Assembly: GCA_021107435.1 (NCBI GenBank)
Contig: JAIOSV010000089.1
Coordinates: 39,388-103,387, forward strand
DNA: 64,000 bases
Reading direction: 5' to 3'
DNA from: Candidatus Sabulitectum sp.
GTDB lineage: Bacteria; Fermentibacterota; Fermentibacteria; Fermentibacterales; JCC-6
Part shown: one piece after another, positions 1-38,897 of the stretch
Layout of the letters: each line of letters opens with the position of its first letter
Position numbering within the stretch: the stretch's first letter is position 1
The notes under the pieces: generated by a model
What the model was told of the DNA's origin: nothing
The model's database searches: none
What the model saw: only the letters and a program-made list of their open reading frames with translations
Translations under genes and position numbers: made by a program

Positions 1-512
1 GTGGTAACTCCGACAAAGGCTGCACTGATGCCGTCTATATCCATGAAGATATATGGCAGTATGGGTGCGGGTATCTCGCCCTCCACTGTTGTGAAGTTTG
101 TACAGATGACCGGAAAGTCAGCCATTTCCGACTTGAGGATGGCATTTTCCGCACCGTGGTCGAAATCATGGTTGCCCAGAGTCATCATATCGTAATCCAT
201 TGAATTCATCCATTCCATCATGAATTCGCCTGAGTTGTAGTTGCCTACAGGAGTTCCCTGCCAGATATCTCCCGCGTCAATAAGAAGGCAGTACTCTCCA
301 CTCTCCAGGCAGTCTTCCCGCACTTGATTGACATAGGTCGCTATCCAGGCACCACCTCCGATTCCCGGTGGGAAATCGGGATTCATAAAGGAAGCCTCTC
401 GGGAAGCAATTCCTCCATGTATATCATTTGTGTGAAGGATGTTCAAATACACAACCTCCGCCTGAGAAAAGGCAGCCAGAAGGAGGAGTACCAGTGCAAT
501 TCTTGTCAGCAT
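1..512 (-). CDS. Secreted 5'-nucleotidase/metallophosphoesterase family protein, N-terminal part (3' end lies beyond the window start)
   Basis: Hand translation of the minus strand from ATG at 512 (not in the supplied ORF track) gives MLTRIALVLLLLAAFSQAEVVYLNILHTNDIHGG...LLIDAGDIWQGTPVGNYNSGEFMMEWMNSMDYDMMTLGNHDFDHGAENA with no stop through position 1. It has a signal peptide plus the LHTNDxHG and GNHDFD metallophosphatase motifs typical of UshA/5'-nucleotidase N-terminal domains. It lies 13 nt downstream of the OMP gene ending at 526. Confidence 0.75.
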   Translation of the reverse strand, partial: MLTRIALVLLLLAAFSQAEVVYLNILHTNDIHGGIASREASFMNPDFPPGIGGGAWIATYVNQVREDCLESGEYCLLIDAGDIWQGTPVGNYNSGEFMMEWMNSMDYDMMTLGNHDFDHGAENAILKSEMADFPVICTNFTTVEGEIPAPILPYIFMDIDGISAAFVGVT

Positions 513-525
513 GATACCGTCCTTT

Positions 526-1698
526 CTAGAATGTCTTCGTCAAACCAAGAGTAAAGGCAGTTCTACTGGATTCCACTACCAGAGAGTCACCCAAAGTAAA
601 TGACGGGAGTCCATCCGCCTGATACTGATCCCATCTCACCGGGGAAAAACTGATTCCGGCATCCAGTGTGAGATCATCCACAGCCCATCCGACACCCGTG
701 GTGATTTTCATTCTGTCAAGTGCACCGGCAAGCAGAGAGCTGTCGTACTCAAAGCCAACTCTGCCGATTATGCCGCCGGGGAGGGTATTCTCCACTCCTG
801 CCCCGAATCCCCATGAATTCCTCATACCGGCATCCACATCCGCGATTTCAACAGACCCGGTGCACGACCACCAGAAATCAGCAACGAAAAGACTCATAAG
901 CCTGTTACCGGGCAGATATCTGAGCCCTGCTCTTACTGTCATGGGAATTGTCAGATCGGTCTCAATCGACTCAATTTTCGTCTTCCAGCTCACCGGCTGC
1001 TCAATTCCAGCTGAAATTGAAACTCTGTTTAAGCTGACAAGCGCAGATCCGCGGACCACAATTCCGGAAATATCGGCGTCAATCTCAGCTTCATAGTCCA
1101 TGGCTGTGGGATCGACATAATCGATCCTGTGATCCATGGATCTGGTTCCTGTTACGAAACTGCCGCCAGCACCAACGGAAAGCATTCCCCACTGTGTCCA
1201 GGCTGCTGAAAGACCAAAATCGTTAAGAATTCCGCTGATGTCCAGCGTTTCCTGCGCGACCTTCACATAGTCGCCGTCATTCATTACCCTGCTGTACTTG
1301 TAAGCAAAGGAGGAAGCTGCTCTCCAGCCAGCCGAGAACGCCAGATCGCCCTGCTTCCACGCAACAGCGGCTCCGCCGGGAAGAGGATGAAAGTTCTGAT
1401 TAAAGCTGTGCTCAGACTCTCCCACCACCCCGCCGAAGCTGTCGTAAACTCTTCTGGTTCTCTTCTCAATATCCAGAGCCACTGCTCCGGTGATTCCCGC
1501 GCTGAAGCCTTCCGGGAGTTGGGAAGCCATGGCCGGATTCTGCAAAGCTGCCTGCGGAGAAACATCCGCGTAAACAGTGTTGCCCATGGCTGCTGCTCCT
1601 GCTGAACCGAGTATCCCCTCGTCTCCAAGCCACATTACCTCCGGCAGGCCGCCGGAGAGGGCCAGAAGGATAATCATTCCACCTGCTGTTATACCCAT
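526..1698 (-). CDS. Outer-membrane beta-barrel protein (hypothetical; possibly PorV/FadL-like)
   Basis: 390-aa ORF with a hydrophobic N-terminus (MGITAGGMIILLALSGG) and Gly/Ser/aromatic-rich alternating composition. It has a C-terminal aromatic residue (…GLTKTF) typical of OM barrels. It is the third gene of a co-directional envelope operon. Confidence 0.5.
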   Translation of the reverse strand: MGITAGGMIILLALSGGLPEVMWLGDEGILGSAGAAAMGNTVYADVSPQAALQNPAMASQLPEGFSAGITGAVALDIEKRTRRVYDSFGGVVGESEHSFNQNFHPLPGGAAVAWKQGDLAFSAGWRAASSFAYKYSRVMNDGDYVKVAQETLDISGILNDFGLSAAWTQWGMLSVGAGGSFVTGTRSMDHRIDYVDPTAMDYEAEIDADISGIVVRGSALVSLNRVSISAGIEQPVSWKTKIESIETDLTIPMTVRAGLRYLPGNRLMSLFVADFWWSCTGSVEIADVDAGMRNSWGFGAGVENTLPGGIIGRVGFEYDSSLLAGALDRMKITTGVGWAVDDLTLDAGISFSPVRWDQYQADGLPSFTLGDSLVVESSRTAFTLGLTKTF

Positions 1699-1710
1699 CA
1701 GTCCTCCTGC

Positions 1711-4143
1711 CTACCAGCGAATATCAAGCTGGCAGCGAATACCGTAATCGATGACATGATCACCGAAATCTGTTACCGTTTCATCCGGATCCCCCTGATA
1801 GTGATACTGATCATCGGGGTCCGGCCTGTAAAATCCGTTATGGGGAAAGAATGTGTCCTTCCTTAAAAACTTGAAACGAAGCTGAAGATTGTCCGAGAGA
1901 GTATTCTTCATGGTGACATAGAACTTTGTTCCGTCTCCATCGAGGAAATCAATCCCGGTATCCTCAAATTCCCACTGGCTCATACCGTTGGTTGTCCAGA
2001 AGGTACTTCCACCGAGAACAGAAAGCTCAGGGCTGAACTCATGCTCCCAGCGCATGGCCAGGAAACCGCCGGACATGTTTCTGTCGTCACCGTAAAGCGG
2101 GTTCGGAGTAAGCTCTACATTTCCATAACGCAACTCCATGCTGAAGTAATCTCCACCAACAGGAAGAGAAAATGTACGGAGGGTAAACTCCTGCGTACGG
2201 GAATTACTGGGCACTATGTCCTTGTGGTTGATTTTGTCCTGGAACTTGTACTTCAACCGGAATCTCACCGGCCACACGGGCCTGTATTCCACTTCGCCCT
2301 GGAACCGGAGGTTCTCTGTGTCGTAAGCCAGGTTCCTCCAGACATCCAGATAAACCTTCGTAAAGGTGACCTGCTGGCTGACTTGAAACCGGGTCTCCAC
2401 ATAAAGACCCTCTTCAGGTTTGGGAACAGGCAGATCCGCAAGCTGGGAAGCCAGTGGATCATTAAGCCTGTAGGACTTTTCAAAAACGGTGTCATCAAAT
2501 CTGTGCTGCTCGGCAAAAGCCCGGTTGTACGGATTCATGAAGTCGAGGGCATAGTTGCGGTAAGAACCGGTTAAATGGAACCAGTTGTTCTGCCAGCTGG
2601 CAGTGGTAATGCTTGCCCAGGCTCCATTGTCCTGTCTGACAGCCTCCACTTCCGCGCTCATGTTTTTGTAAACAGACTGGGCTGAACCGGCGAAGTAACT
2701 CTGTCTGTCACCGGAGGGCATGTGAGCATACTCGGGGCAATCCCAGGTGTATGTGTCATTGGGTATGTCCATTCCCGCGACTGAAGGATTCAAAGAATCA
2801 CTGTACTGTATTCCAAGTACTCCCACGCCAATTGCGGTTCCTACCGGGAGATAGTCTCCCAGATCGTAGAAGGCGTATCCGCCATATGTAGTTTCATTGA
2901 GAACACCACTGTATTCCTCCGGTCTGAACTCTCCCTGATAAAGCACATTGGGTGTACCATCCAGATTTGTAACAGCGTCCCTGGAAGTGAAAGAACCGAA
3001 GGCGTATCCCAGAACCGGCCCTGCAACAATCTGCGTTGCGGCACCGAAAAGCGCGTTCTGTCTGGAGGATGTCAGATCGGGGGTCAGCCCCCATGTTCTG
3101 TATGTGTTTCTGTACATCAGTTCGTCGGAGTTGTCTATTAGAAGTCCCTGGGCGAGTGAAAGCCTGTAGTTACCCGCTATCACCTGTCTGACAAATCCGT
3201 CATTCTGGAAAGAGAAGTAAGCTTTCCCGAGATCGAACCGGTTATTAACCGGCGCATCAAGACCAGCGATTAGATCGCTTCCCGCGATGGAATTTACTCC
3301 ACGGGAAAGTCTGGCGCCTGCCCGGTATCTGTCTCCCGCGCCAACTCTGACCCTGTGGCTGAAACCACTCACATCCCGGGCCTCAAGAAGCTGGGCATAC
3401 TCGGACTGGAGTCTTGTTATAAGCTCGAGACTGTCTATGGAAGTGGAAGAAAGTTCTCTTCCTCCATCAAGAATGTCCGAGATAGCGGATTTCATTTCGG
3501 AGATGTGTCCCGAAAGGTTGTCATCTATCCCGTCCCGCCCTTCATTGTCATCATAGATGAAGCGATATCCGCCGAAGAAATCGGTGGAAGAGTAATCAGG
3601 TTCCCGGGTTGAAATGTAGTCTTTCATATTGCGGTAACCGTAGTAGCGAAGGTATTCCGTGCTTCGAAGTGATGAGACGGATGACACCGGACCAAGAGTT
3701 CTCAGTCTGTTGTCGACCGAAGCCGCGTCGATAAAACTCACCCGGTCAAGGCTGCGAAGATCCCACCAGGAAACCTGATTGATGGGCATGGGTCTGAGAA
3801 GCAGATCCTCCCAGTACTCAACTGCGGCGTCTCCCGGACCATCCTCCTGTGCAAGCCTTTCCATAACATTAAGAATGTCCGATGAGATTTCCGGTTCAGG
3901 AGCAGGCAGAACTATGACATTCTCCCTGAGCCATCCAAGAGTAACAGGTGTGAATCCGGGAAGATCCACCACCTCGTATATGCTCTCCAGGCCTCCCGTG
4001 CCCTGTATGTAGTCATATAGAATCACTGCCTGTCCCGAAGTAAGTCCTTCCAGACCAAGCAGTTCCTCATAAGTGGCAGAGTTCAGATCGAACCCGGGGG
4101 GCACAGCGGCCAGCATTGAAGCAAGCAGCAGGCTAAAAAGCAT
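1711..4143 (-). CDS. Large outer-membrane beta-barrel protein with N-terminal ComEA-type helix-hairpin-helix domain
   Basis: 810-aa protein with signal peptide MLFSLLLASMLAAVPPG. It is followed by FDLNSATYEELLGLEGLTSGQAVILYDYI, which matches the ComEA/HhH_3 consensus (LNxAtxeELxxLpGig.xxAxxIvxyR). The remainder is Y/G/N/R-rich and beta-strand-like and ends in W. The gene overlaps the downstream gene by 10 nt. Confidence 0.55.
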   Translation of the reverse strand: MLFSLLLASMLAAVPPGFDLNSATYEELLGLEGLTSGQAVILYDYIQGTGGLESIYEVVDLPGFTPVTLGWLRENVIVLPAPEPEISSDILNVMERLAQEDGPGDAAVEYWEDLLLRPMPINQVSWWDLRSLDRVSFIDAASVDNRLRTLGPVSSVSSLRSTEYLRYYGYRNMKDYISTREPDYSSTDFFGGYRFIYDDNEGRDGIDDNLSGHISEMKSAISDILDGGRELSSTSIDSLELITRLQSEYAQLLEARDVSGFSHRVRVGAGDRYRAGARLSRGVNSIAGSDLIAGLDAPVNNRFDLGKAYFSFQNDGFVRQVIAGNYRLSLAQGLLIDNSDELMYRNTYRTWGLTPDLTSSRQNALFGAATQIVAGPVLGYAFGSFTSRDAVTNLDGTPNVLYQGEFRPEEYSGVLNETTYGGYAFYDLGDYLPVGTAIGVGVLGIQYSDSLNPSVAGMDIPNDTYTWDCPEYAHMPSGDRQSYFAGSAQSVYKNMSAEVEAVRQDNGAWASITTASWQNNWFHLTGSYRNYALDFMNPYNRAFAEQHRFDDTVFEKSYRLNDPLASQLADLPVPKPEEGLYVETRFQVSQQVTFTKVYLDVWRNLAYDTENLRFQGEVEYRPVWPVRFRLKYKFQDKINHKDIVPSNSRTQEFTLRTFSLPVGGDYFSMELRYGNVELTPNPLYGDDRNMSGGFLAMRWEHEFSPELSVLGGSTFWTTNGMSQWEFEDTGIDFLDGDGTKFYVTMKNTLSDNLQLRFKFLRKDTFFPHNGFYRPDPDDQYHYQGDPDETVTDFGDHVIDYGIRCQLDIRW

Positions 4144-4951
4144 ATGTCACCCCAATTGCGTGAGACAGATTAAGCTCGGGGTGAGTCTGTACTGAGTAGC
4201 AGACTTCAATACCTTCCACCTCAGCAGAGAAACCACCGGTAAGTACCGCAGGGCCGCTCATGGCTCCGGCGTACACAGTGAGAGGTCCAAGAGGAAGGGC
4301 TCCACCGACCCTTACCCTGGTTCCCCTGAAGTCCCTTGAAAGAGCGAATGCTGTAACAAGACCTGCCGCGGGTTCATAGGAAATTCCCGCATCCATCTGT
4401 CTGTGCATGTATTCTTCCGAATTGCCTATTCGAGACTCAAAAGGATTCTTTACAGCAGCGGCAAATGCCCATCTGTCGTACATGGTTACTCTAAATCCCG
4501 CGTTGACAGAAAAAGCCGTGGCACTTCCGTAACTGCTCACACCGTCTTTGATGTCGACTCTGGCAAAAACCGGCTGCAGACCGAACGAGAAATCTCTGGA
4601 AAGCTTTCCCGCAATTGTGGCGGCTATAACCTGCTCATTGTAAAGTTCTCCACCGAACCATCTCGCGCTTCCGGCAAGATTCCAGTTCTCTGTAACAGGA
4701 GCTCCGCCATCAATGCCTGCAGTGGCAAAATCAAAGTTGGTGTAAGGCATCTTCCCGGAAATTGTTACCGAGGGTTGATCCATGGCCGCCACTGACGCGG
4801 GGTTCCACATACTGCCTTCAAGCCCTGCCAGAACCACTCCTGTTCCACCCATGGCCATTGCCGGTATGCCCATCTCAAGTTCCTCAAAAGAGGCTGATGC
4901 AGGCAGAGCAAGTGCGAGAACCAGAAGGGTTGCTGTTATTGTAATTTTCAT
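4133..4951 (-). CDS. Outer-membrane beta-barrel protein (hypothetical; PorP/SprF- or PorQ-like size)
   Basis: 272-aa protein with signal peptide MKITITATLLVLALALPASA and a beta-barrel-like composition. It ends in a C-terminal F (…GVTYAF). It lies 11 nt downstream of the secreted-protein gene. Confidence 0.45.
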   Translation of the reverse strand: MKITITATLLVLALALPASASFEELEMGIPAMAMGGTGVVLAGLEGSMWNPASVAAMDQPSVTISGKMPYTNFDFATAGIDGGAPVTENWNLAGSARWFGGELYNEQVIAATIAGKLSRDFSFGLQPVFARVDIKDGVSSYGSATAFSVNAGFRVTMYDRWAFAAAVKNPFESRIGNSEEYMHRQMDAGISYEPAAGLVTAFALSRDFRGTRVRVGGALPLGPLTVYAGAMSGPAVLTGGFSAEVEGIEVCYSVQTHPELNLSHAIGVTYAF

Positions 4952-4961
4952 GTAATCCCTC

Positions 4962-5969
4962 CTATTCCAGCGGCGCCGCGATAACCACGGTCTCTGTTGT
5001 AGTCAGTCTGTCTCCATTGGGGGATACACCTTCAAGCATCAGCAGGTACTGACCCATGGGCAGATATTCATTCCAGTCATCCCTGCCGTCCCAGTTGAAT
5101 ATGTCACCGGCCGGAGAGTTAATTGCGAGATGCGCGAGATCTCTTCCTGCGCGATCATAGAGAGTAAGATTGAATCGAACTCCCTGGGGGCCACCGTATT
5201 CGATCTGCATTGTCTCACCCATGTCCGGGGCGAAGGGATTGCCTGAAACTTCCAGATGGAAGTAGTTTTCCACAGACGGGTTGAATATGATGATGTCGCT
5301 CTGATACCGTGGAAGCAGTTGATAACCGGAATCATAGGGCTCAGTAGAATCGTACTGCCCGCCTATTCCAATCATGAACAGTCTGGTTCCAACAGCAATG
5401 GCTGAAACATCAATTACGGTCGTTTCATTCACTCTGATTGGAATAACCGTCTGGCCGTTCCACACATCAAAGTTGTACCCGCCTCCGGCACTGGAAGGAG
5501 CTGTGGCCACTGTAACCCACTGTGTAAGATTTTGATTTCCAGCAGCTATGAGCATTCCCTCTATAGCTTCGGAAACCGGCTGATTCCTCACAAGCTGAAC
5601 AGGCGCGGGCATACCTGGATTACCCACATAGCTGTAATCATCAACCGATTCTGGAGATATCTCCGTAAGGCCGTTGTAGACCTTTATCTCGCCTGTAATC
5701 TCCCACTCCTCACCGGGATTCAGATTACCGGGAGCTTCGTAGGCGTAAACATTTATTCCGGCAGTAGAGTCCTGTACATAAAAGCTTACTCCATCTGAGG
5801 AAAACAGTCCAGTTTCACAGGTGGCAATTCCACTGATCGTCACTATCTCACCCAGCAGATCCGGTATTCCATTCCCGTCACTGTCAATCCTTGCCTCGGC
5901 TATGGTGAGAACCTGTGCGCCAGCGAAACAGCACAGCACCATCACCGGCAACAGAACCTTGATCATCAT
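4962..5969 (-). CDS. Secreted protein with OB-fold-like domain and FlgD-Ig/T9SS-type C-terminal domain
   Basis: Start is taken at MMIKVLLPVMVLCCFAGA (signal peptide). It has a DSDGNGIPD Ca-binding-like motif. The segment TISGIATCETG..FYVQDSTAGINVYAY..GEEWEITGEIKVYNGLTEI resembles the OB-fold of extracellular nucleases (YhcR/ExeM type). The C-terminal ~90 aa (…FNLTLYDRAGRDLAHL..WDGRDDWNEYLPMGQYLLML…) resembles a FlgD Ig-like / T9SS C-terminal sorting domain. Confidence 0.5.
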   Translation of the reverse strand: MMIKVLLPVMVLCCFAGAQVLTIAEARIDSDGNGIPDLLGEIVTISGIATCETGLFSSDGVSFYVQDSTAGINVYAYEAPGNLNPGEEWEITGEIKVYNGLTEISPESVDDYSYVGNPGMPAPVQLVRNQPVSEAIEGMLIAAGNQNLTQWVTVATAPSSAGGGYNFDVWNGQTVIPIRVNETTVIDVSAIAVGTRLFMIGIGGQYDSTEPYDSGYQLLPRYQSDIIIFNPSVENYFHLEVSGNPFAPDMGETMQIEYGGPQGVRFNLTLYDRAGRDLAHLAINSPAGDIFNWDGRDDWNEYLPMGQYLLMLEGVSPNGDRLTTTETVVIAAPLE

Positions 5970-5994
5970 TCCTCCCAATCCGGCCCCAGTGACA

Positions 5995-7347
5995 CTAGCG
6001 GCCTGTTCTAATCTCCGCATTAGCCAGATCGGCTGCTCTTGAGAGCGCCTCTTCCGGCATCATTCTTCCGTAAAGTACAATTTCTACCGATTCAGAAAGA
6101 AATGCCCTGCCGTCATACCAGGCTGTGATTTGAGGCTCAAACACCGCATAGTGCAACTGTTCGAGAACAGCCTCCAGGCCGGGGTATTCTTCTATTTTTT
6201 CTATAACTGCCGGATCCTCAAGACTTGAGACACGAGCAGGCAGATAGCCGCTTCCTGCGAACCATCTTGCCTGTATATCCGGTTGAGTAAACCACTTGAT
6301 GAATTCCCATCCGGCTTCCACCACACGGGGATCTTCATTCTCGAAAAGAATCACATTGGTTCCAGCGATATACACTGCCTGTTCACGCCCGGCGGGCAGC
6401 GGCGCTGTTCCTATTGTGAAAGTCGAGAGACCGCTCTCAGCTCTTCTTTCCATGTCACAAATCATGAAAGCCAGGCTGGTTACTGATCCCTGCACCTGCC
6501 CCACCCGACCATTGGCAAAAGCCTTCTGATGATCGTATCCGGAGGTAAGATATGCCGTGGAATCCACATAGAGTAATGCAGTCATGTACTCAAGAGCTTC
6601 AATACCCTGGGGAGAATTGAACGCAGTTTCTGTTGAATCAAAGTTCAAAAGAGATCCGCCCGCCTGAGCAAGAAGACACTCAAAATTCCAAACGGAAGTA
6701 CCGAATGCAGTACCGCTTCTGTCTCCTTCATCAAACAGATCACCGTCATTATTACCGTCATGGGTCAGAATCTGAAGCAGTTCTCTCTGTTCTTCCCATG
6801 TTGCAGCGGGAGAAACTCCCAGGCTGTCGAAAAGCTCTACGTTGTAATAAATCAGTGGCACACTTTTGTTGAATGGGAAAGAGTACACTTTTCCATCAAA
6901 AGTGTTGTTCTCCTGAAAGACAGGGAAGAAATCGTTCCACATTTCATCAGTGTATGAGGGATCCGCATCCATGAGAGAATCAAGAGGAACCAGGGCTCCA
7001 CCACGAATCAGCTGTGCTGTCCAGGTTTCATAGGCCTGGGCCATCCCCGGAGGAGAATCAGCCATGACTCCTGCCATAATCTTCTGACTGAGAGCACTGT
7101 AGTTGCCCATGCACACAGGCACAATCTCAATATCTTCATGCAGCGAGTTGAATTCAGCAATTAAAGTGTCTTCAAGCACATCACCCAGTGGGCCACCCAT
7201 AGCATGCCAGAACACAACCTGTACTGGACCGGATTCAGAATCAGTCTCCCTGCCGCATGCTGCGGCCAGCAGAATTGCCACCAGAATCGCAAACTGATAC
7301 CTCAGAACAGACCCCCTCTGCATAATGAAGATCGAAAATATTAACAC
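5995..7347 (-). CDS. ABC transporter substrate-binding protein (sugar-type, family 1), lipoprotein
   Basis: 450-aa protein with a lipobox (LLAAACG). It has the length and composition of extracellular solute-binding proteins, with conserved W/aromatic-rich motifs throughout. No adjacent permease or ATPase genes are present. Confidence 0.65.
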   Translation of the reverse strand: MLIFSIFIMQRGSVLRYQFAILVAILLAAACGRETDSESGPVQVVFWHAMGGPLGDVLEDTLIAEFNSLHEDIEIVPVCMGNYSALSQKIMAGVMADSPPGMAQAYETWTAQLIRGGALVPLDSLMDADPSYTDEMWNDFFPVFQENNTFDGKVYSFPFNKSVPLIYYNVELFDSLGVSPAATWEEQRELLQILTHDGNNDGDLFDEGDRSGTAFGTSVWNFECLLAQAGGSLLNFDSTETAFNSPQGIEALEYMTALLYVDSTAYLTSGYDHQKAFANGRVGQVQGSVTSLAFMICDMERRAESGLSTFTIGTAPLPAGREQAVYIAGTNVILFENEDPRVVEAGWEFIKWFTQPDIQARWFAGSGYLPARVSSLEDPAVIEKIEEYPGLEAVLEQLHYAVFEPQITAWYDGRAFLSESVEIVLYGRMMPEEALSRAADLANAEIRTGR

Positions 7348-7484
7348 ATAATATATGACTAACCGGTACCGGGTGAAGAGCAGACGAGAAATCAGGCTTC
7401 AGGGGAATTCCCAGCTTGTATATGTTAGTACTGTTAGTGCTGAGGTTATTTGTGGACACGCAATCATTTGAGGAGGTATTGCAA

Positions 7485-7946
7485 ATGAAGAAATTTACTC
7501 TTGCGACTGCTTTTATTCTTGCCGTGGCCTGCGGCGGCGCGGCACCCGATAAGGTTGTGAGTGAATTCATTACAGCATGGAACTTCGGGGAGGGCAGCAA
7601 TGTCGTCAATCTCATGTCAACAAAAGCTCTTGCCGACATGAACGGTACAATAAATATGCTGAAGCTGGCACCCGAGGAAGCTTCCTCTCAACTTGCCAGC
7701 AGGGGTATCATGTTTACTCCTGTGGAGGTCGAGTTTTTGACTCCGGGAGAATTCATGGGCGGAATGCTTCGCAACGTGAACCCCTCCTATGCCCTGCCTG
7801 ACTTCTCCAATGCGGAAATTGGAGAAACAGCAATCGCGGAAGACGGCAATACTGCTGTTGTTAACATCACTGTAGATGGCGAAACCCGGGAAATCCGGCT
7901 TGTTTCAGAGGGCGGCACCTGGAAGATTGATGAAATTCCCGAATGA
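7485..7946 (+). CDS. Small NTF2-like/DUF4878-like lipoprotein, paralog 1 of 4
   Basis: ATG at 7485 follows an AGGAGG RBS at 7471-7476. The protein starts MKKFTLATAFILAVAC (lipobox) and shares the motifs PDKVV..F..A, N.TAG and a C-terminal E(I/L)..V.EGG.WKID with the three following genes. Confidence 0.7.
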   Translation: MKKFTLATAFILAVACGGAAPDKVVSEFITAWNFGEGSNVVNLMSTKALADMNGTINMLKLAPEEASSQLASRGIMFTPVEVEFLTPGEFMGGMLRNVNPSYALPDFSNAEIGETAIAEDGNTAVVNITVDGETREIRLVSEGGTWKIDEIPE

Positions 7947-7995
7947 AATGAAAAGCACAAATTTCCTTCTTCTGGAATCGCGAGAACAAGCACAC

Positions 7996-8023
7996 TTGCA
8001 TCATTATCGTGAAAGGCTATAAT
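7996..8023 (+). promoter_or_regulatory. Sigma70-like promoter for lipoprotein paralog 2 (TTGCAT-N16-TATAAT)
   Basis: TTGCAT at 7996-8001 is followed by a 16-nt spacer and TATAAT at 8018-8023. The start codon is ~100 nt downstream at 8129. Confidence 0.5.
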
Positions 8024-8128
8024 TTACTTGTGAGGTTAATGCTATGGGTATTGCTGGGCGTTAATCAAAAATAATGTTGCGTATTAAGTAATCCATTCTG
8101 AATAACAATTTTAGGGAGGAATTTACCA

Positions 8129-8599
8129 ATGAAAAAGTTTGCTCTTGCTCTTGTGGCGGTTTTTGTTCTTTCAGCCGCCTGCGGAGGTGGCGGAACACCA
8201 GATCAGGTTGTGAAGAAGCTTTTTGAGGCGTTTGAGAATGCCGATGGCGACGCTGTTGTGGCCTGCTTGTCAGAAGAAGCTCTTGAAGACATGAATGAGA
8301 ACGTAGAGGAACTGAGGGAATCGCCTGAAGAAAGTGTCGCTTTCTTCGCCATGATGAACATTGAGATTACAGAAGATGAAATTGAGAACATGACAGCGGG
8401 AGACCTTGTATCCGCAATCCTCGGCAGTGAGGTGTTCACTGAAGAAATGCCTGATTTCAGCAATGTTGAGATTGGCGAAGCCATCATCGACGAAGAAGAC
8501 GCGAAAGTGCTTGTAACCATCGACGGTGATACTGAAGAGTTTGAGCTTGTCCTTGAAGACGGCAACTGGAAAATCGATGACGGAATGAATTTCATGTAA
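8129..8599 (+). CDS. Small NTF2-like/DUF4878-like lipoprotein, paralog 2 of 4
   Basis: RBS GGGAGG precedes the start. The protein starts MKKFALALVAVFVLSAACGGGG (lipobox). It is D/E-rich and has the conserved C-terminal FELVLEDGNWKIDD. Confidence 0.75.
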   Translation: MKKFALALVAVFVLSAACGGGGTPDQVVKKLFEAFENADGDAVVACLSEEALEDMNENVEELRESPEESVAFFAMMNIEITEDEIENMTAGDLVSAILGSEVFTEEMPDFSNVEIGEAIIDEEDAKVLVTIDGDTEEFELVLEDGNWKIDDGMNFM

Positions 8600-8616
8600 T
8601 TACTTTTCTTCTTTCG

Positions 8617-8642
8617 GGCGTCCTTCGGGGCGCCTTTCTTTT
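8617..8642 (+). terminator. Rho-independent terminator after paralog 2
   Basis: 7-bp GC-rich stem GGCGUCC/GGGCGCC (one G-U pair) with a UUCG tetraloop. It is followed by a TTTCTTTT run. Confidence 0.6.
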
Positions 8643-8706
8643 GTGCCAAATACAGTTTGCCCCGTCTGAAATACGATTCCTTTCGACGCCTGCGAAATGA
8701 ACACAT

Positions 8707-8734
8707 TTGCATCAGAGTTACAAATGGCTATAAT
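8707..8734 (+). promoter_or_regulatory. Sigma70-like promoter for lipoprotein paralog 3 (TTGCAT-N16-TATAAT)
   Basis: TTGCAT at 8707-8712 is followed by a 16-nt spacer and TATAAT at 8729-8734. The hexamers and spacing are the same as in the paralog-2 promoter. Confidence 0.5.
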
Positions 8735-8838
8735 CGGCCAACGATTCTGTTTTCTCGGTTATCAGCAAAATGTTGTTCGGCGGAGAGGTGATGTTTGCTT
8801 TTCTGTACTTGACAGCACCAATCAGGAGGGGTTTTCAA

Positions 8839-9315
8839 ATGAAAAAGTTTGCTCTTGCTCTTACGGCAGTTTTTGTTCTTTCCTTCGCCTGCCTTGGCGG
8901 CGGCGGAACACCGAACCAGGTTGTACAAAATCTTTTTGACGCAATTGAAGGCGGCGACGGCGACGCAGTTGTCGGCTGCCTTTCGACTGAAATACTTGAC
9001 GGTTTCGACGAAGGCCTTGAAGAATTAAAGGCAGATCCTGAAGGAACCGCCGCCATGGCAGTTATGATGGGCATAGAGATCACACCTGAAGAGGTTGCGG
9101 ATCTCACACCAGGCAAAGCTATTTCTATTATTCTCAGCAGTGAAATGATGACTTCGGAAATGCCTGATTTCAGCACCGTTGAAATCGGTGAAGCAGTTAT
9201 CGACGGCGAAACAGCAACTGTTCCGGTTACTATGGACGGTGATACTGAAGATATTGAGCTTGTCCTTGAAGACGGCAACTGGAAAATCGGTGGCGAAGGC
9301 ATGAACTTCATGTAA
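8839..9315 (+). CDS. Small NTF2-like/DUF4878-like lipoprotein, paralog 3 of 4
   Basis: ATG at 8839 follows an AGGAGGGG RBS. The protein starts MKKFALALTAVFVLSFACLGGGG and has the C-terminal IELVLEDGNWKIGGEGMNFM. The upstream part of the track ORF (from 8770) lacks an RBS or signal peptide. Confidence 0.75.
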   Translation: MKKFALALTAVFVLSFACLGGGGTPNQVVQNLFDAIEGGDGDAVVGCLSTEILDGFDEGLEELKADPEGTAAMAVMMGIEITPEEVADLTPGKAISIILSSEMMTSEMPDFSTVEIGEAVIDGETATVPVTMDGDTEDIELVLEDGNWKIGGEGMNFM

Positions 9316-9330
9316 ACTGCTACCTGTTTC

Positions 9331-9357
9331 GGGCGCTCTTCGGAGCGCCTTTTTTTT
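9331..9357 (+). terminator. Rho-independent terminator after paralog 3
   Basis: Perfect 7-bp stem GGCGCUC/GAGCGCC with a UUCG loop. It is followed by a run of eight T. Confidence 0.7.
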
Positions 9358-9476
9358 GACTGCTTGCAAGACGATACCCACCTCGAAACAAATACAGATC
9401 ATTGAATTATATTCCAGCGCGAATTCAGAATTTAATTGTCTCTGCTTTTCCAGACATATTTGTAAGGAGTCTGCAA

Positions 9477-9947
9477 ATGAAGTTTTTCTATCTTGTTCTT
9501 ACGACACTTTTCATTTGTATCACCGCATGTAACAGCGAAACTCCGGAACAGGTTGTAAAGATTTTTTTTGAGGCCTATGAAAACGCAGATGGAAACGCTC
9601 TTATCAATTGCATGTCCAGTGAAGGATTGTCAGATATCAATGATTACATTGATCAACTGAAAGAAACACCTGAAGAAAGTGCCGACTATCTGTCCATGAT
9701 AGGCATTGAAATCACAGCGGAAAACGTAAAGAACATGACTGCGGGCGACTTTGTTACCGCCATATTCAGCAGCCCTGTTTTTGCCGGCGAGCTTCCGGAC
9801 TTCAGTGGCGCAGAGTTCGGCAAGGCAGCAATCTATGGAAACAGAGCACTGGTTCCTGTTACAATGGACGGTAGCACGGAGGAGATAGAACTTGTTCTGG
9901 AGGACGGCAACTGGAAAATCGTTGGTGATGGTATGGAGATTCTGTGA
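9477..9947 (+). CDS. Small NTF2-like/DUF4878-like lipoprotein, paralog 4 of 4 (most divergent)
   Basis: ATG at 9477 follows an AAGGAG RBS. The protein starts MKFFYLVLTTLFICITACNSETPEQVVKIFFEAYENADGNALINC and has the C-terminal IELVLEDGNWKIVGDGMEIL. Confidence 0.7.
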   Translation: MKFFYLVLTTLFICITACNSETPEQVVKIFFEAYENADGNALINCMSSEGLSDINDYIDQLKETPEESADYLSMIGIEITAENVKNMTAGDFVTAIFSSPVFAGELPDFSGAEFGKAAIYGNRALVPVTMDGSTEEIELVLEDGNWKIVGDGMEIL

Positions 9948-17601: not shown

Positions 17602-18978
17602 TCAGCGTATCCTCAATGGCATCTGAAGCCTCTCTGCCAGGGCTGTCACGCGGTGCATATCAGCTCCTGAATTTTTAACAACGGAAACCCTGGCCCTGAT
17701 ACAAGTGGTCTTTACCAGCTTGATAAACTTCATCAGGTGCTCCCAGGGATCTTCAACTGTGGATGGACACACTCTGTTGTACTCTCTGGCCCCGGAAGCA
17801 TTCAAACTGATGTTCACCGAGTCGAAACAGCGCAGAAGCGTTACAACCTGCCGATCGCTGAGAAAGGAGGTGCAGAGGCCGTTGGTATTCAATCGGGTTT
17901 TTACTCCTCTGGCTCCAGCCGCCGTGGCGCTCGTCATGAGAAGGTCAGTTCTAAGTGTGGGTTCTCCAAAACCGCAGAATACAAGCTCCTTAAAACCCTC
18001 AATTGGAAACGCTTCAATAGTGGAGAGAACAAGGCTTTTAGAAGGGTCTTCTCTGTGCCTGAGGCTGTAACCGGCAATGCCGTCGGCAGATTTCCTGATG
18101 CAAAATCCACAGTTGTTCTGACATCTTGAAGTAAGATTGACGTAAAGGGAATCTCCATAACGGTAAACAATATCTGCCCTTCTGTTTCCCGGGTGAAGCC
18201 TGTATGCCCTCATGGCATTCTCCCAGAGGATGTACGAGGTGTTCTCTATAGACATGTTATCACCCCAAAGTTCCCTGATTTTCATGATGATAAACCCGGT
18301 AAAGGCCGGTTGATTCCTTCTGCCCCTGAAAGGCTCCGGAGGCAGAAAAGGTGAATCCGTCTCAACAAGAAGTCTGTCTCTGGGAATCCTGGGAATCAGT
18401 CCACGAAGCTTGTTGCTTTTTTTATAGGTCAGAGGACCATCGACTCCGATATAGAAGCCTCTGGCAACAGCTATGTCTGTAAGCGACTCATCACCGCCCC
18501 AGCAGTGCAGTATCACAGGTACCGATAAAGATGATGGCAGCTGGTTGAGAACTTCAGACTCTGCCCCCCGTGAATGTACTATCAGAGGATAGCCGATTGA
18601 CTCCGCAAGCTCAATATGCCGGTGAAACCACCGGATCTGTTTCGCCGGTTCGAAAGTTCCGTGATGATAATCAAGACCAGTTTCCCCCACTGCAACGGTA
18701 TTGGGTCGAAGCAGCACATGCTTAATGGCAAGCCATTCCGCTTCACCGATACTCTCCTCAGGCAAATGCTCAGGGTGAAACGCTGCCGCAGAGAAGAGGT
18801 TATATTTCTCGGCAATATCCGCAGATCTCTCTGCCGTCTCGACATCAATGGAAGGTATCATAATGTGACTGATTCCAGCTTTTCCTGAATCAGTAACCAC
18901 TGCATCCAGATCTTCGTTAAAGTGGTGAAAGTGCAGGTGGCAATGGCTGTCAAATCCCAGTGTCATGACAAACCTCAA
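17602..18978 (-). CDS. TatD-family metal-dependent hydrolase fused to a radical SAM domain
   Basis: The N-terminal ~255 aa carry TatD motifs (FDSHCHLHF, GETGLDYH, LIVHSRGA, VETDSPFL). The C-terminal ~200 aa carry CQNNCGFC (CxxxCxxC radical-SAM cluster motif) and match the TatD-associated radical SAM family. It is a single uninterrupted 458-aa ORF. Confidence 0.75.
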   Translation of the reverse strand: MRFVMTLGFDSHCHLHFHHFNEDLDAVVTDSGKAGISHIMIPSIDVETAERSADIAEKYNLFSAAAFHPEHLPEESIGEAEWLAIKHVLLRPNTVAVGETGLDYHHGTFEPAKQIRWFHRHIELAESIGYPLIVHSRGAESEVLNQLPSSLSVPVILHCWGGDESLTDIAVARGFYIGVDGPLTYKKSNKLRGLIPRIPRDRLLVETDSPFLPPEPFRGRRNQPAFTGFIIMKIRELWGDNMSIENTSYILWENAMRAYRLHPGNRRADIVYRYGDSLYVNLTSRCQNNCGFCIRKSADGIAGYSLRHREDPSKSLVLSTIEAFPIEGFKELVFCGFGEPTLRTDLLMTSATAAGARGVKTRLNTNGLCTSFLSDRQVVTLLRCFDSVNISLNASGAREYNRVCPSTVEDPWEHLMKFIKLVKTTCIRARVSVVKNSGADMHRVTALAERLQMPLRIR

Positions 18979-36866: not shown

Positions 36867-38897
36867 ATGATTCTCGGCATACTGTTCTTCCTGCTGTCCA
36901 CCACTGAAACAGACACATTCACTCCACTTCCTTCGGGGTATTCAATCTCACAGAGGGATGGAGTAAGCACAGTAGCTGTTGAGAAGAAAGATGGCTTCTT
37001 TTCTGCGGAACCCGGAGCACCTTTTCTTCCCCTCGTTTCCAGAGTCTTTATTCTTCCCGGAAGATGCGAAGTTCTTTCTCTTTCAGTGAATTTCGAACAA
37101 CCGGCATACATTGAAAAACTCCCCGCTCCTCTGGCTGGTGCCCCTGTTGTTCAGCCGACAGGCCGATCAAACCACCAGGCACTCACTGCCTCCACTGCCA
37201 GCATACCATCCGGTGGTCAGTCTTTCTCCTTCCATACAGGTCACATTCTTGATGCGTACACTATTGTTTCATGCTCTGTAAACCCTTGGATCTACGATTC
37301 AGGCACACAGGAACTGGGACTGTCTGCTTCCTGTACGATCGAACTTGACTGGGTTAGTACCTGCTCCCAGGCCGATCTATCTGAATGTCAGATTGAAATG
37401 CTTGATTTCCGCATAGCTTCTCTGGCTGACAGATACGGTGTATTGCTCACACAAACTCCTTATCTGCCGGGAACTGACTCCGGTATTGACTATCTGATTA
37501 TCACGTCCGAGAATCTCCTTGATGAAACAGCCATACTTGAAAACCTCCTTGATAGAAAAGAGATCACCTTCCAGACTCTTACCGTTCAGGCAATCAGCGG
37601 CAACTGGGAAGGTATTGACATACAGGAGGATATAAGAAACTGCATCAGGCACTATGCTTTCAATCAGGGGACCGCTTTTGTCCTTCTTGCGGGTGATGAA
37701 ACCGTTGTTCCTGTACGAGAAATCTATACAGAGTGTGAAGGATTGAGTGAACTGGCTCCCTCCGACCTGTACTACGCTGACCTTGATGGATCATGGGATC
37801 ATAACGGCAATGGAATCTATGGAGAATACGCCGACAGCCTTGATCTTTACGCTGATGTGCTGCTGGGAAGACTTCTATTCTCCACCTCAGCAGGAGCCAC
37901 TGCTGTTTTTGAGAAAAACACAATTTACGCCAGTGTCAGCACCTCTGAGACATGGTATAAAAGCGCAGTTCTCTGCGGAGCGATGCTCTTCAAGGAAATT
38001 GGATATGTGGGCGCAAAGGGTTGCGAGATCATGGCTGAAGAATTCCCTGACGATTTCACTTTAACCAGGGCTTACGAATTGTCTGTAGGAGATTATCCGG
38101 ACACCTACTTCCCAGTACTTTATGATGGAGCAGGCTGGAACCACTATGCAGGCCATGGAAACGACAGAGGCGTTTACTGGGCAGGCAACGGCGCTGCCAT
38201 ATTAAACATAGCCAGAATGGATGGTTTCAGCGAGGAATACACTGGAACCAACGAAGATGCCAACCCTGGCCGAACTGGCATTCACACCTGCATAGGATGC
38301 CACACAGGTGACTTCACCGATCCGGGCGTCTGTCTCCCTGACACGCTTCTTACACTGCCCAACGGCGGCGGAGTAGCAGGCATGTTCAACACTTCATGGG
38401 GATGGGAAGGCTACTGGCCTGAGATCGGATCTTCTGAAAGACTCTGCAACAACACCGTGGAGCAGGTCTATCAGCAGAAAGCACCATCGCTGGGGCTTGC
38501 GTACACAACAGCAAAAGATCTTGAGATTCCCATGATGACTGGCCCCTATGACAGGGTAATGCAATCTGTCATCGCTTACTCCGCTTTCATGGATCCGTCT
38601 CTGAAGGTTCTCGGAGTCAGCAGTTTCAACCCTATTCCGCCTTCACCATTCCAGGTGGTCATGCTGAGCCCCAACCCGCTTACTGATGAAGTGATCACCT
38701 TTAAGGTTACCGGCATCTCCACCACCTATGATATAGCCGTCTTCAATCTTGCGGGAAGAGTTGTTGAATCTTTAAGCCTTCCGCAGAATACTATGCACTC
38801 CGTAGGGCTGGAATCATTTCCAGTGGGTGTTTACTTCGTCTCCGCCAGAGCACCCGGGGGAGTCATCGCTTCAGGAAGCTTCGTCCTGCTGAGGTAG
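36867..38897 (+). CDS. Peptidase C25 (gingipain-like) family protein with T9SS-type C-terminal sorting domain
   Basis: 676-aa protein with a signal peptide. It has a C25-like core (…VLLAGDE…, HYAGHGN His-Gly block, CIGCHTGDF Cys block). The C-terminal ~80 aa (…GVYFVSARAPGGVIASGSFVLLR) match a T9SS type-A CTD pattern. Confidence 0.6.
   Translation: MILGILFFLLSTTETDTFTPLPSGYSISQRDGVSTVAVEKKDGFFSAEPGAPFLPLVSRVFILPGRCEVLSLSVNFEQPAYIEKLPAPLAGAPVVQPTGRSNHQALTASTASIPSGGQSFSFHTGHILDAYTIVSCSVNPWIYDSGTQELGLSASCTIELDWVSTCSQADLSECQIEMLDFRIASLADRYGVLLTQTPYLPGTDSGIDYLIITSENLLDETAILENLLDRKEITFQTLTVQAISGNWEGIDIQEDIRNCIRHYAFNQGTAFVLLAGDETVVPVREIYTECEGLSELAPSDLYYADLDGSWDHNGNGIYGEYADSLDLYADVLLGRLLFSTSAGATAVFEKNTIYASVSTSETWYKSAVLCGAMLFKEIGYVGAKGCEIMAEEFPDDFTLTRAYELSVGDYPDTYFPVLYDGAGWNHYAGHGNDRGVYWAGNGAAILNIARMDGFSEEYTGTNEDANPGRTGIHTCIGCHTGDFTDPGVCLPDTLLTLPNGGGVAGMFNTSWGWEGYWPEIGSSERLCNNTVEQVYQQKAPSLGLAYTTAKDLEIPMMTGPYDRVMQSVIAYSAFMDPSLKVLGVSSFNPIPPSPFQVVMLSPNPLTDEVITFKVTGISTTYDIAVFNLAGRVVESLSLPQNTMHSVGLESFPVGVYFVSARAPGGVIASGSFVLLR

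What the first reader, a model, noticed from the sequence alone, without database searches (positions are those of the whole stretch)
1..7347. Candidate cell-surface nucleic-acid capture/degradation operon: 5'-nucleotidase + HhH-porin + OB-fold secreted protein + two more OMPs
Six co-directional minus-strand genes are separated by 10-26 nt or overlap. From the upstream end they are an orphan ABC substrate-binding protein, then a secreted protein with an OB-fold-like segment of the type found in extracellular nucleases plus a FlgD-Ig/T9SS-like C-terminal domain. Next come a 272-aa OMP, an 810-aa OMP whose N-terminus is a ComEA-type helix-hairpin-helix, a 390-aa OMP, and finally a signal-peptide 5'-nucleotidase/metallophosphoesterase. 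The last gene was found by hand translation and is missing from the ORF track. Two predicted nucleic-acid-binding modules are co-encoded with a secreted phosphoesterase and three barrels. That combination fits a dedicated extracellular DNA/nucleotide scavenging or uptake apparatus that does not correspond to a named system.
Basis: partly seen in the sequence, partly recalled or inferred. Interest (0 to 1): 0.6.

Follow-up and report, generated by a model that had tools for sequence, protein, structure and literature searches.

The report
Outer-membrane DNA capture and scavenging cluster
An uncultured sediment bacterium (Candidatus Sabulitectum, Fermentibacterota) has a tightly packed gene cluster, conserved across several candidate phyla, that most likely captures nucleic acid at the cell surface, passes it through an uncharacterised outer-membrane pore with built-in DNA-binding domains, and strips phosphate from the resulting nucleotides in the periplasm.

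Summary

- **810-aa protein:** it starts with two tandem ComEA-type HhH_3 modules. These are followed by a roughly 24-strand beta-barrel that matches no Pfam family.
- **335-aa secreted protein:** its high-confidence model shows nucleic-acid-type OB folds. The best fold matches are dsDNA-binding HIN-200 domains. An Ig-like, T9SS-type C-terminal domain follows.
- **272-aa and 390-aa OMPs:** they are homologous to each other and belong to the FadL/PorV/BamG superfamily.
- **Last gene:** an UshA-type 5'-nucleotidase with a signal peptide.

The order OMP272–HhH barrel–OMP390–nucleotidase is kept in 60 Fermentibacterota loci. It is also kept in most WOR-3, Latescibacterota and unclassified loci, where the barrel is only about 35% identical. 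Those distant loci add NucT-like PLD nucleases, surface PHP phosphoesterases, RecJ-like genes or a full ABC importer.

The closest known systems are the Bacteroidales ddb DNA-utilisation loci and the related Riemerella transformation genes. They share the DUF5689/HIN-like binder and the use of an HhH protein, but use a TonB-dependent-type barrel.

Verdict: a new variant of a known kind. The function is inferred, not demonstrated.

The parts
5995..7347 (-). CUT1-type ABC substrate-binding protein (450 aa as the longest ORF; probable start 7323; lipobox-like LLAAAC). No permease or ATPase lies nearby.
   Evidence: SBP_bac_8 6.5e-34 and SBP_bac_1 3e-23. UgpB-like 6.7e-30 but far below the cut-off. 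No permease or ATPase homologue in the window or in Fermentibacterota flanks, whereas L061/L080 have both around the cluster. Present in 46/47 informative Fermentibacterota loci.
4962..5969 (-). Secreted 335-aa protein. It has a signal peptide, nucleic-acid-type OB folds (HIN-200-like, DUF5689-related; about 5280-5912) and an Ig-like T9SS-type C-terminal domain (about 4965-5258).
4133..4951 (-). 272-aa outer-membrane barrel of the FadL/PorV/PorQ superfamily. It is the proposed anchor for the CTD protein encoded just upstream.
   Evidence: PorV_fam 1.9e-6, below cut-off. Family profile against the PDB: PorV 6h3i_F 0.003, then CymD and TodX. Homologous to the OMP390 family at hhalign 96.6%. 'CTD protein then small barrel' gene pairs recur in distant loci.
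3898..4101 (-). First ComEA-type HhH_3 module of the 810-aa protein (residues about 15-82).
   Evidence: HHH_3 1.1e-3 in the window protein. 34/34 family members hit HHH_3. PDB ComEA and EEPD1 hits. Model pLDDT about 80.
3595..3798 (-). Second, degenerate HhH_3 module of the 810-aa protein (residues about 116-183).
   Evidence: hhalign of family columns 12-85 against 112-185: probability 98.6%, E 4.8e-16.
1711..3579 (-). Beta-barrel part of the 810-aa protein (residues about 189-810, about 24 predicted strands, C-terminal ...DIRW), including the stop codon. It belongs to no described family.
   Evidence: AF2 secondary structure shows 24 long strands; pLDDT 55. Foldseek finds only generic large OM barrels such as FimD/PapC, SlpA and AlgE. 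No Pfam hit other than HhH in 34 members. No barrel hit in PDB sequences. 185 representative clusters among 1.84 billion proteins.
526..1698 (-). 390-aa outer-membrane barrel of the FadL/BamG/PorV superfamily.
   Evidence: BamG NF053685 3.7e-10, at 39 bits against a cut-off of 250. Family profile against the PDB: BamG 9n2d_B 3.3e-7 and FadL-like 3dwo 1e-4. Present in 55/55 Fermentibacterota loci and 15 distant loci.
1..512 (-). N-terminal 170 aa of a signal-peptide UshA/CpdB-type 5'-nucleotidase (full length 533 aa), cut by the window edge.
   Evidence: Metallophos 2.1e-6. Nt5e/UshA/CpdB models 1e-24 to 1e-15. The full protein on L001 has Metallophos + 5_nucleotid_C and the DxH, GD, GNHD and GHTH motifs. 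Present in 51/51 and 13/15 informative loci.
7348..7377 (-). Weak sigma-70-like promoter match in the divergent intergenic region upstream of the SBP gene.
   Evidence: 9/12 match. The number of such sites in the region is not above the shuffled expectation, so this is only compatible with an operon start there, not evidence for one.

Best explanation
The cluster is a nucleic-acid capture, import and dephosphorylation module of the outer membrane and periplasm, used mainly for scavenging nutrients (P, N, C).

Proposed steps:
1. The secreted OB-fold protein binds extracellular DNA or RNA at the cell surface. Its Ig-like C-terminal domain is held by the adjacent small PorV/PorQ-like barrel (OMP272).
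2. The polymer, or fragments of it, crosses the outer membrane through the roughly 24-strand barrel of the 810-aa protein.
3. Two fused ComEA-type HhH modules on the periplasmic N-terminus of that protein bind the incoming DNA and bias its movement inward.
4. The BamG-like OMP390 is a further subunit of the same outer-membrane assembly.
5. Nucleases encoded elsewhere in this genome, or inside the cluster in some lineages, produce nucleotides.
6. The periplasmic 5'-nucleotidase converts the nucleotides to nucleosides plus phosphate.
7. The inner membrane takes up the products. The co-encoded binding protein feeds an ABC importer of unknown specificity.

What is shown: gene order, domain identities, folds and cross-phylum synteny. 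What is inferred: every binding, transport and catalytic step, all protein-protein contacts, and the periplasmic location of the HhH modules.
For: 2. **Homology of the OB protein.** It is related to DUF5689 and to the N-terminal region of ExeM/NucH nucleases. DUF5689 proteins are DdbD of the B. thetaiotaomicron DNA-utilisation locus and RA0C_RS04920, which is essential for Riemerella transformation. That system also needs a periplasmic multi-HhH protein (PMC12478041; PMC8459023).
3. **Conserved synteny.** OMP272-HhH810-OMP390-nucleotidase is collinear in 60/60 Fermentibacterota loci. In the 20 distant loci, OMP272 is found in 14 and OMP390 in 15 by HMM, and the nucleotidase in 13 of 15 informative ones by tblastn.
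4. **Accessory genes in distant loci.** They are all nucleic-acid or phosphoester enzymes:
   - paired secreted NucT-like PLD nucleases (L066, L068);
   - CehA/McbA PHP metallohydrolases with a T9SS-type CTD (six loci);
   - RecJ-like DHH proteins (seven loci);
   - a complete ABC transporter around the cluster (L061, L080).
5. **Outer-membrane character.** The three OMPs have signal peptides and terminal aromatic residues, and the 810-aa model is a large barrel.
6. **Recurring gene pairs.** 'CTD protein then small PorV-like barrel' pairs recur. This mirrors the PorV-PorU and PorQ-PorZ pairing of T9SS, which is recalled from my own knowledge.
Against: - No nuclease domain is encoded in the window's six genes.
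- The OB protein is absent from most distant loci (3/14). In L084 the upstream CTD protein is a Kelch propeller instead.
- The window's own HHH_3 (19.5 bits), FlgD_ig (17.8 bits), PorV_fam (27.7) and BamG (39) scores are all below the curated cut-offs.
- The HhH hairpins lack the canonical GIG motif, and HhH folds also occur in non-DNA-binding periplasmic proteins such as GspK and PsbU (weak hits).
- The barrel model has low confidence (pLDDT 55). Pore size, any plug and the strand number are therefore not reliable.
- FadL-family barrels classically carry hydrophobic molecules.
- The SBP is UgpB-like, not of the known nucleoside-binding type.
- No experimental data exist for any member.
Confidence: 0.55

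Rival explanations
1. The cluster is the outer-membrane entry stage of natural transformation. DNA is taken up for recombination rather than food. The HhH barrel replaces the PilQ secretin plus free ComEA.
For: The homologous or analogous parts in Riemerella are essential for transformation: the DUF5689 protein, an OM barrel and a periplasmic HhH protein (PMC8459023). A RecJ-like gene follows the cluster in seven distant loci. ComEA-type HhH is the hallmark of transformation uptake.
Against: The most conserved partner is a 5'-nucleotidase. Accessory genes are nucleases, phosphoesterases and an ABC importer, which destroy rather than preserve DNA. No ComEC, ComF or DprA was seen in the flanks examined. 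Hyd24-12 genomes already encode type IV pili (PMC5030696). The two uses are not mutually exclusive.
Confidence: 0.15
2. The cluster is a T9SS-related or BAM-related envelope module. The PorV/BamG-like barrels and the large barrel serve secretion, surface anchoring or OMP/lipoprotein biogenesis. The HhH modules are structural and do not bind DNA.
For: OMP272 best matches PorV and OMP390 best matches BamG. CTD-bearing proteins sit next to the small barrels. The genome has other T9SS-type CTD proteins (Peptidase_C25 + Por_Secre_tail). BamG/BamH are reported across FCB phyla (PMC12611786).
Against: Scores are far below the equivalog cut-offs (39 against 250; 27.7 against 90). No BamA/POTRA, SprA or PorU is in the cluster. 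This reading explains neither the universally conserved 5'-nucleotidase, nor the tandem ComEA-type modules, nor the OB-fold cargo, nor the nuclease and phosphoesterase accessories.
Confidence: 0.1
3. The cluster scavenges small organophosphates or lipids (nucleotides, glycerophosphodiesters, phospholipids) rather than nucleic-acid polymers. FadL-like channels admit the substrate, PLD and metallophosphoesterases cleave it, and a UgpB-like SBP imports the product.
For: The two smaller barrels are of FadL-family type. The SBP is UgpB-like. PLD-domain proteins could be phospholipases. The 5'-nucleotidase acts on mononucleotides.
Against: The tandem HhH and the HIN-like OB protein are polymer-binding modules. 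The PLD proteins score best as NucT-type nucleases among small PLDs. The SBP is absent from most distant loci (2/12) while the barrel and nucleotidase persist.
Confidence: 0.1
4. The genes are functionally unrelated neighbours in a long directon.
For: The directon continues into a FAD oxidoreductase and a DUF2085 gene that have no evident link. No promoter or terminator signal stands above chance.
Against: The four-gene core keeps its order and strand across phyla where the barrel is only about 35% identical, while the surrounding genes change completely.
Confidence: 0.03

Closest known systems
ddbABCDEF DNA-utilisation loci of gut Bacteroidales (Sharan et al., PNAS 2025; PMC12478041)
   Same: It is a locus combining a surface DNA-binding protein of the DUF5689 type, whose fold resembles HIN-200/p202, with an adjacent outer-membrane barrel and secreted or periplasmic phosphoester-cleaving enzymes. 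The organisation resembles a polymer-utilisation locus. It occurs in the FCB superphylum.
   Different: DdbC is annotated as a TonB-dependent-type transporter. In Riemerella the homologue carries a CarboxypepD_reg domain. The barrel here has no such domains in 34 members and carries fused tandem HhH modules instead. The binder here is held by a T9SS-type CTD rather than the usual SPII lipid anchor of extracellular PUL proteins. Two PorV/BamG-like barrels are added. The conserved enzyme is a 5'-nucleotidase, and no nuclease is in the window's cluster.
Riemerella anatipestifer natural-transformation envelope genes RA0C_RS04920 / RS04915 / RS02645 (PMC8459023)
   Same: The same three functional parts are present: a DUF5689 surface protein, an OM beta-barrel and an HhH DNA-binding module predicted to be periplasmic.
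   Different: There the HhH protein is a separate polypeptide encoded elsewhere, and the barrel is CarboxypepD_reg/TonB-like. Here the HhH modules are fused to the N-terminus of an unrelated barrel. The genetic context (nucleotidase, ABC SBP) points to catabolism.
ComEA plus PilQ/type IV pilus DNA uptake of Gram-negative bacteria
   Same: A ComEA-type HhH_3 domain is positioned at the periplasmic side of an outer-membrane conduit. This supports the idea of DNA binding acting as a periplasmic ratchet.
   Different: There is no secretin, pilus or ATPase in the cluster. The conduit is a monomeric beta-barrel. ComEA is not a free periplasmic protein but is fused in two copies.
T9SS PorV/PorQ barrels with PorU/PorZ, and Bacteroidota BamG with BamH (PMC12611786)
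   Same: These are FadL-fold barrels that act as docking subunits for surface-exposed proteins and attach to a larger barrel. OMP272 best matches PorV and OMP390 best matches BamG.
   Different: Similarity is at superfamily level only, far below the curated cut-offs. The large partner barrel is neither SprA nor BamA.
ExeM/NucH extracellular nucleases and Bacillus YhcR (OB fold + nuclease + 5'-nucleotidase in one protein)
   Same: The same type of N-terminal OB region is present (NF033681 matches). JGI names some OB352 homologues after YhcR. The YhcR domain composition given here is from my own knowledge.
   Different: The OB352 protein has no EEP or SNase catalytic domain. The nucleotidase is a separate periplasmic protein.

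Membership tests
Ddb-type DNA-utilisation locus | DdbD-type DUF5689 surface protein with a HIN/p202-like DNA-binding fold | tested here: met
   Fold: HIN-200 domains are the top Foldseek hits, including 4jbm. Sequence: 9/43 family members hit DUF5689 (best 1.1e-11), and L061/L066 orthologues score above the gathering score. The window protein itself does not reach DUF5689.
Ddb-type DNA-utilisation locus | DdbC-type TonB-dependent / CarboxypepD_reg outer-membrane barrel | tested here: not met
   No TonB_dep_Rec, Plug or CarboxypepD_reg hit in any of 34 family members at E <= 0.1. No TBDT hit by PDB sequence profile. Foldseek ranks ushers, SlpA and AlgE above TBDTs.
Ddb-type DNA-utilisation locus | Secreted nucleases encoded in the locus | tested here: not met
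   None of the six window proteins has a nuclease domain. NucT-like PLD nucleases occur only in L066/L068.
ComEA / HHH_3 | HhH_3 domain recognisable by profile | tested here: met
   Window protein: 19.5 bits, below the gathering score of 27. Family: 34/34 members hit HHH_3, best 5.6e-22. PDB ComEA 8dss/8dfk about 4e-10. Second module at hhalign 98.6%.
ComEA / HHH_3 | Sequence-independent dsDNA binding in the periplasm | not testable with these tools
   This needs EMSA and localisation experiments. The periplasmic location is inferred from barrel topology only.
PorV/PorQ family (T9SS) | Score above the NCBIfam PorV_fam cut-off, and association with T9SS cargo CTDs | tested here: inconclusive
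   27.7 bits against a cut-off of 90. PDB PorV 0.003 by family profile. Adjacency to CTD-bearing genes recurs. No binding data.
BamG (Bacteroidota BAM subunit) | Equivalog-level match and partnership with BamA/BamH | tested here: not met
   39.4 bits against a cut-off of 250. PDB BamG 3.3e-7 by profile shows superfamily relatedness only. No BamA-like gene is adjacent.
UshA/CpdB 5'-nucleotidase family | Metallophos + 5_nucleotid_C domains, metal-binding motifs and a signal peptide | tested here: met
   Both Pfam domains are on record for the 533-aa protein. DxH, GD, GNHD and GHTH motifs can be read in the sequence. UshA/CpdB/Nt5e models score 1e-47 to 1e-50 but below the equivalog cut-offs. Substrate was not tested.
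T9SS C-terminal sorting domain | Por_Secre_tail/TIGR04183-type CTD at the C-terminus | tested here: inconclusive
ExeM/NucH extracellular endonuclease | EEP catalytic domain following the OB region | tested here: not met
   Only profile positions 30-110 of 546 match. The model shows OB folds plus a CTD and no catalytic domain.
ABC transporter (CUT1) substrate-binding protein | SBP_bac_1/8 fold with cognate permeases and ATPase | tested here: inconclusive
   The SBP domains are met. Partner permease and ATPase are absent from the window and from Fermentibacterota flanks but present in L061/L080.

The most novel reading that the evidence does not exclude
The 810-aa protein would be a new class of pilus-independent, TonB-independent outer-membrane DNA translocon. 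It would be a single large beta-barrel whose two fused ComEA-type HhH modules act as a built-in periplasmic ratchet. It would assemble with two FadL-fold (PorV/BamG-like) barrels that dock CTD-bearing surface proteins, namely a HIN-like DNA binder and, in some lineages, a PHP phosphoesterase. The result would be a multi-barrel nucleic-acid import machine of the candidate FCB-related phyla.
Probability: 0.3. Interest if true: 0.85.

Novelty: new variant of a known kind. Interest (0 to 1): 0.62.

Why it matters
Extracellular DNA is a major pool of P, N and C in sediments and digesters. The known routes across the outer membrane are the secretin/type IV pilus route, the Helicobacter ComB system and the recently described Bacteroidota DdbCD / Riemerella route.

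This cluster would add a route built on a different barrel with fused ComEA-like domains. It would assign a nutritional role to abundant uncultured Fermentibacterota, WOR-3 and Latescibacterota.

It also offers concrete, clonable parts for testing how a beta-barrel could pass a nucleic acid: the HhH tandem, the OB protein, the nucleotidase and the barrel itself.

The recurring 'CTD protein then small PorV-like barrel' gene pairs suggest a general rule for how T9SS-type cargo is tethered outside the Bacteroidota.

Tried and rejected
- **AF2 of the 810-aa protein.** A 32-sequence alignment (55% identity or more) gave only pLDDT 55. Foldseek against the PDB returned generic barrels at TM 0.2-0.3, so no specific barrel class can be claimed.
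- **AFDB search.** The afdb50 fold library was unavailable.
- **Promoter and terminator scan of 1-8200.** Counts were not above shuffled controls, so the operon claim rests on spacing and synteny only.
- **ABC partners.** tblastn with the L061 permease and ATPase found none in the window or in Fermentibacterota flanks.
- **Literature.** Searches found no description of the HhH-barrel family. The Hyd24-12 genome paper mentions type IV pili but not this cluster.
- **Rejected identities.** The 810-aa protein is not BamA, LptD or SprA, since it has no POTRA or other family hit. OMP390 is not bona fide BamG, since its score is far below the cut-off.


Full report
**Observation**

The ORF list and a manual translation confirm six co-directional minus-strand genes:
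- SBP at 5995-7347;
- OB/CTD protein at 4962-6020 (probable start at 5969, giving 335 aa);
- OMP272 at 4133-4951;
- HhH-OMP810 at 1711-4143;
- OMP390 at 526-1698;
- a 5'-nucleotidase that starts at 512 and is cut by the window edge.

Spacers are 25, 10, -11, 12 and 13 nt. Identical contigs found through the 390-aa protein show the nucleotidase is 533 aa (Metallophos + 5_nucleotid_C). On those contigs the directon continues into a FAD oxidoreductase and a DUF2085 membrane protein.

The 810-aa protein is 92% identical to one from Candidatus Sabulitectum sp. MAGs, so the window comes from the Fermentibacterota (Hyd24-12).

**Domain checks**

Against Pfam and NCBIfam the window proteins give mostly sub-threshold hits:

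| Protein | Hit | Score |
|---|---|---|
| HhH-OMP810 | HHH_3 | 19.5 bits |
| OMP272 | PorV_fam | 27.7 bits |
| OMP390 | BamG | 39 bits |
| OB/CTD protein | ExeM/NucH N-terminal region | 24 bits |
| OB/CTD protein | FlgD_ig | 17.8 bits |
| Nucleotidase | Metallophos, UshA, Nt5e | clear |
| SBP | SBP_bac_8 / SBP_bac_1 | clear |

Family-level analysis turns the weak hits into firm ones.
- All 34 diverse members of the 810-aa family hit HHH_3 (best 5.6e-22), and nothing else recurs.
- The family profile hits the HhH repeats of EEPD1 (2.9e-19) and ComEA (about 4e-10) among PDB sequences.
- Residues 112-185 form a second HhH_3 module (hhalign 98.6%, E 4.8e-16).
- The OMP390 profile best matches BamG (9n2d_B, 3.3e-7) and a FadL homologue.
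- The OMP272 profile best matches PorV, CymD and TodX.
- The two OMP families are homologous to each other (hhalign 96.6%).

**Structures**

The 810-aa model has low confidence (pLDDT 55, pTM 0.53). It shows a well-predicted HhH domain and about 24 long beta-strands from residue 189 to the C-terminal W. Foldseek returns only large outer-membrane barrels such as ushers, SlpA and AlgE, at low TM scores. It is therefore a barrel, but of no recognisable class.

The 335-aa protein folds with high confidence (pLDDT 91.7).
- The top Foldseek matches are the dsDNA-binding HIN-200 domains of p204, p202, MNDA, IFI16 and AIM2.
- Among 43 family members, 9 hit DUF5689, 8 tRNA_anti-codon, 28 FlgD_ig and 11 Por_Secre_tail.
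- JGI labels some members after the YhcR nuclease.

**Conservation**

A pattern scan of one genome per species returned 80 loci.
- In all 60 Fermentibacterota-level loci the genes are collinear and on one strand. Among informative contigs: SBP 46/47, OB 53/53, OMP272 56/56, OMP390 55/55, nucleotidase 51/51, DUF2085 41/41 and FAD oxidoreductase 29/43.
- In 20 distant loci (WOR-3, Latescibacterota, Coatesbacteria, unclassified; barrel 33-39% identical) the core persists. OMP272 is found in 14 and OMP390 in 15 by HMM. The nucleotidase is found in 13 of 15 informative loci.
- The OB protein (3/14) and the SBP (2/12) are mostly missing from the distant loci.
- The 810-aa family is rare: 185 representative clusters among 1.84 billion proteins. 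Sources name it only 'helix-hairpin-helix domain-containing' or 'hypothetical'.

**Accessory genes in distant loci**

These are the most informative evidence for function.
- L066 and L068 insert two secreted NucT-like PLD proteins between OMP390 and the metallophosphoesterase.
- Six loci place a CehA/McbA PHP metallohydrolase with a T9SS-type CTD after the nucleotidase.
- At least four of those loci follow the PHP protein with a second small PorV-like barrel; a fifth, L080, has only a weak match.
- Seven loci continue with a RecJ-like DHH protein.
- L061 and L080 flank the cluster with an ABC permease, the SBP and a MalK/UgpC-like ATPase. There the OB protein is enlarged to about 1150 aa, with three Big_5 domains, DUF5689/OB and a CTD.
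- The window and the Fermentibacterota flanks hold no permease or ATPase, so the SBP is locally orphan there.

**Mechanism**

The best-supported reading is a nucleic-acid capture, import and dephosphorylation module.
1. A surface OB/HIN-like binder is tethered through its CTD to the adjacent PorV/PorQ-like barrel.
2. Passage is through the large barrel.
3. Two fused ComEA-like modules hold the DNA on the periplasmic side.
4. A periplasmic 5'-nucleotidase finishes the breakdown to nucleosides and phosphate.

Only the parts list, the folds and the synteny are shown. All contacts and activities are inferred.

Weak points:
- no nuclease is encoded in this cluster;
- the OB protein is dispensable in many relatives;
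- the barrel model is of low confidence;
- the HhH hairpins are degenerate;
- the SBP is of a type not known to bind nucleosides.

**Comparison with known systems**

The literature search via DUF5689 found two precedents.
- The ddbABCDEF locus of B. thetaiotaomicron is required for depletion of exogenous DNA. It encodes three nucleases, a TonB-dependent-type barrel (DdbC) and the DUF5689 protein DdbD. The DdbD model resembles p202 bound to dsDNA (10.1101/2025.03.18.642099 = PMC12478041).
- Its relatives in Riemerella are essential for natural transformation, together with a separate periplasmic protein containing HhH domains (PMC8459023).

The present cluster shares the binder type and the use of HhH. 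It fails the DdbC test, because no TonB, Plug or CarboxypepD_reg signal appears in 34 members. It has no nuclease. It uses CTD rather than lipid anchoring. It adds two FadL-fold barrels and a conserved nucleotidase.

The PorV and BamG relationships are at superfamily level only. BamG is a FadL-fold docking subunit for a surface lipoprotein in the Bacteroidota BAM complex (PMC12611786). That offers a working analogy, not membership.

**Verdict**

- Novelty: a new variant of a known kind.
- Interest is moderate to high. A barrel with fused ComEA modules would be an undescribed way to bring DNA across an outer membrane, and the parts are directly testable.
- Confidence in the scavenging mechanism is about 0.55. 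Transformation (0.15), an envelope-biogenesis or secretion role (0.10) and small-organophosphate scavenging (0.10) remain open.

Noticed in passing
window 7416-9947 (+): Four tandem paralogous genes for small (156-181 aa) lipoprotein-like proteins (starts 7416, 8129, 8770, 9402), divergent from the cluster. Two give weak DUF4878/DUF4829 (SnoaL-like) hits. Function unknown.
   Followed up: partly
window 36867-38897 (+) and 38898-40880 (-): A 676-aa Peptidase_C25 protein with a Por_Secre_tail CTD (gingipain/PorU-like) shows that T9SS-type sorting domains are used in this genome. It lies next to a convergent CotH-kinase + lamin-tail-domain protein.
   Followed up: partly
window 17602-18978 (-): A 458-aa ORF combines a full TatD-related DNase domain (1.6e-62) with a radical-SAM domain. 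I did not examine this combination further; it could be a fusion or two genes merged by the ORF caller.
   Followed up: no
L070 12614-14853; L071 4818-6922; L073 5581-7696; L083 15021-17113; L080 15379-17624: Recurring gene pairs in which a PHP/CehA-McbA metallohydrolase with a T9SS-type CTD is immediately followed by a small (263-269 aa) PorV/PorQ-like barrel. This mirrors the OB352 then OMP272 pair in the window and suggests one barrel per CTD cargo.
   Followed up: partly
L066 13581-14757; L068 3542-4709: Two tandem secreted PLDc_2 proteins (about 192 aa, NucT-like) are inserted inside the cluster in a WOR-3 lineage. There the nucleotidase is shortened to a 306-aa metallophosphoesterase.
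   Followed up: partly
L060 15060-16682; L064, L065, L069, L084; L061 17171-18838; L080: A RecJ-like DHH/DHHA1 gene (below the recJ equivalog cut-off) lies downstream of the cluster in seven loci. These fall into two groups, one annotated WOR-3 (L060, L064, L065, L084, with L069 labelled only 'bacterium') and one unclassified (L061/L080). Whether this is a functional link or a conserved housekeeping neighbour is unresolved.
   Followed up: partly
L001 6931-8677 (beyond the window start): A FAD-dependent oxidoreductase (PRK07208-like, 4-nt gap) and a DUF2085 membrane protein continue the directon after the nucleotidase. DUF2085 is kept in 41/41 informative Fermentibacterota loci but in no distant locus.
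   Followed up: partly
L084 5923-9039: In this WOR-3 locus the CTD-bearing protein upstream of the small barrel is a 1038-aa Kelch-repeat protein with Por_Secre_tail, not an OB-fold protein. The surface partner of the barrel is therefore variable.
   Followed up: no
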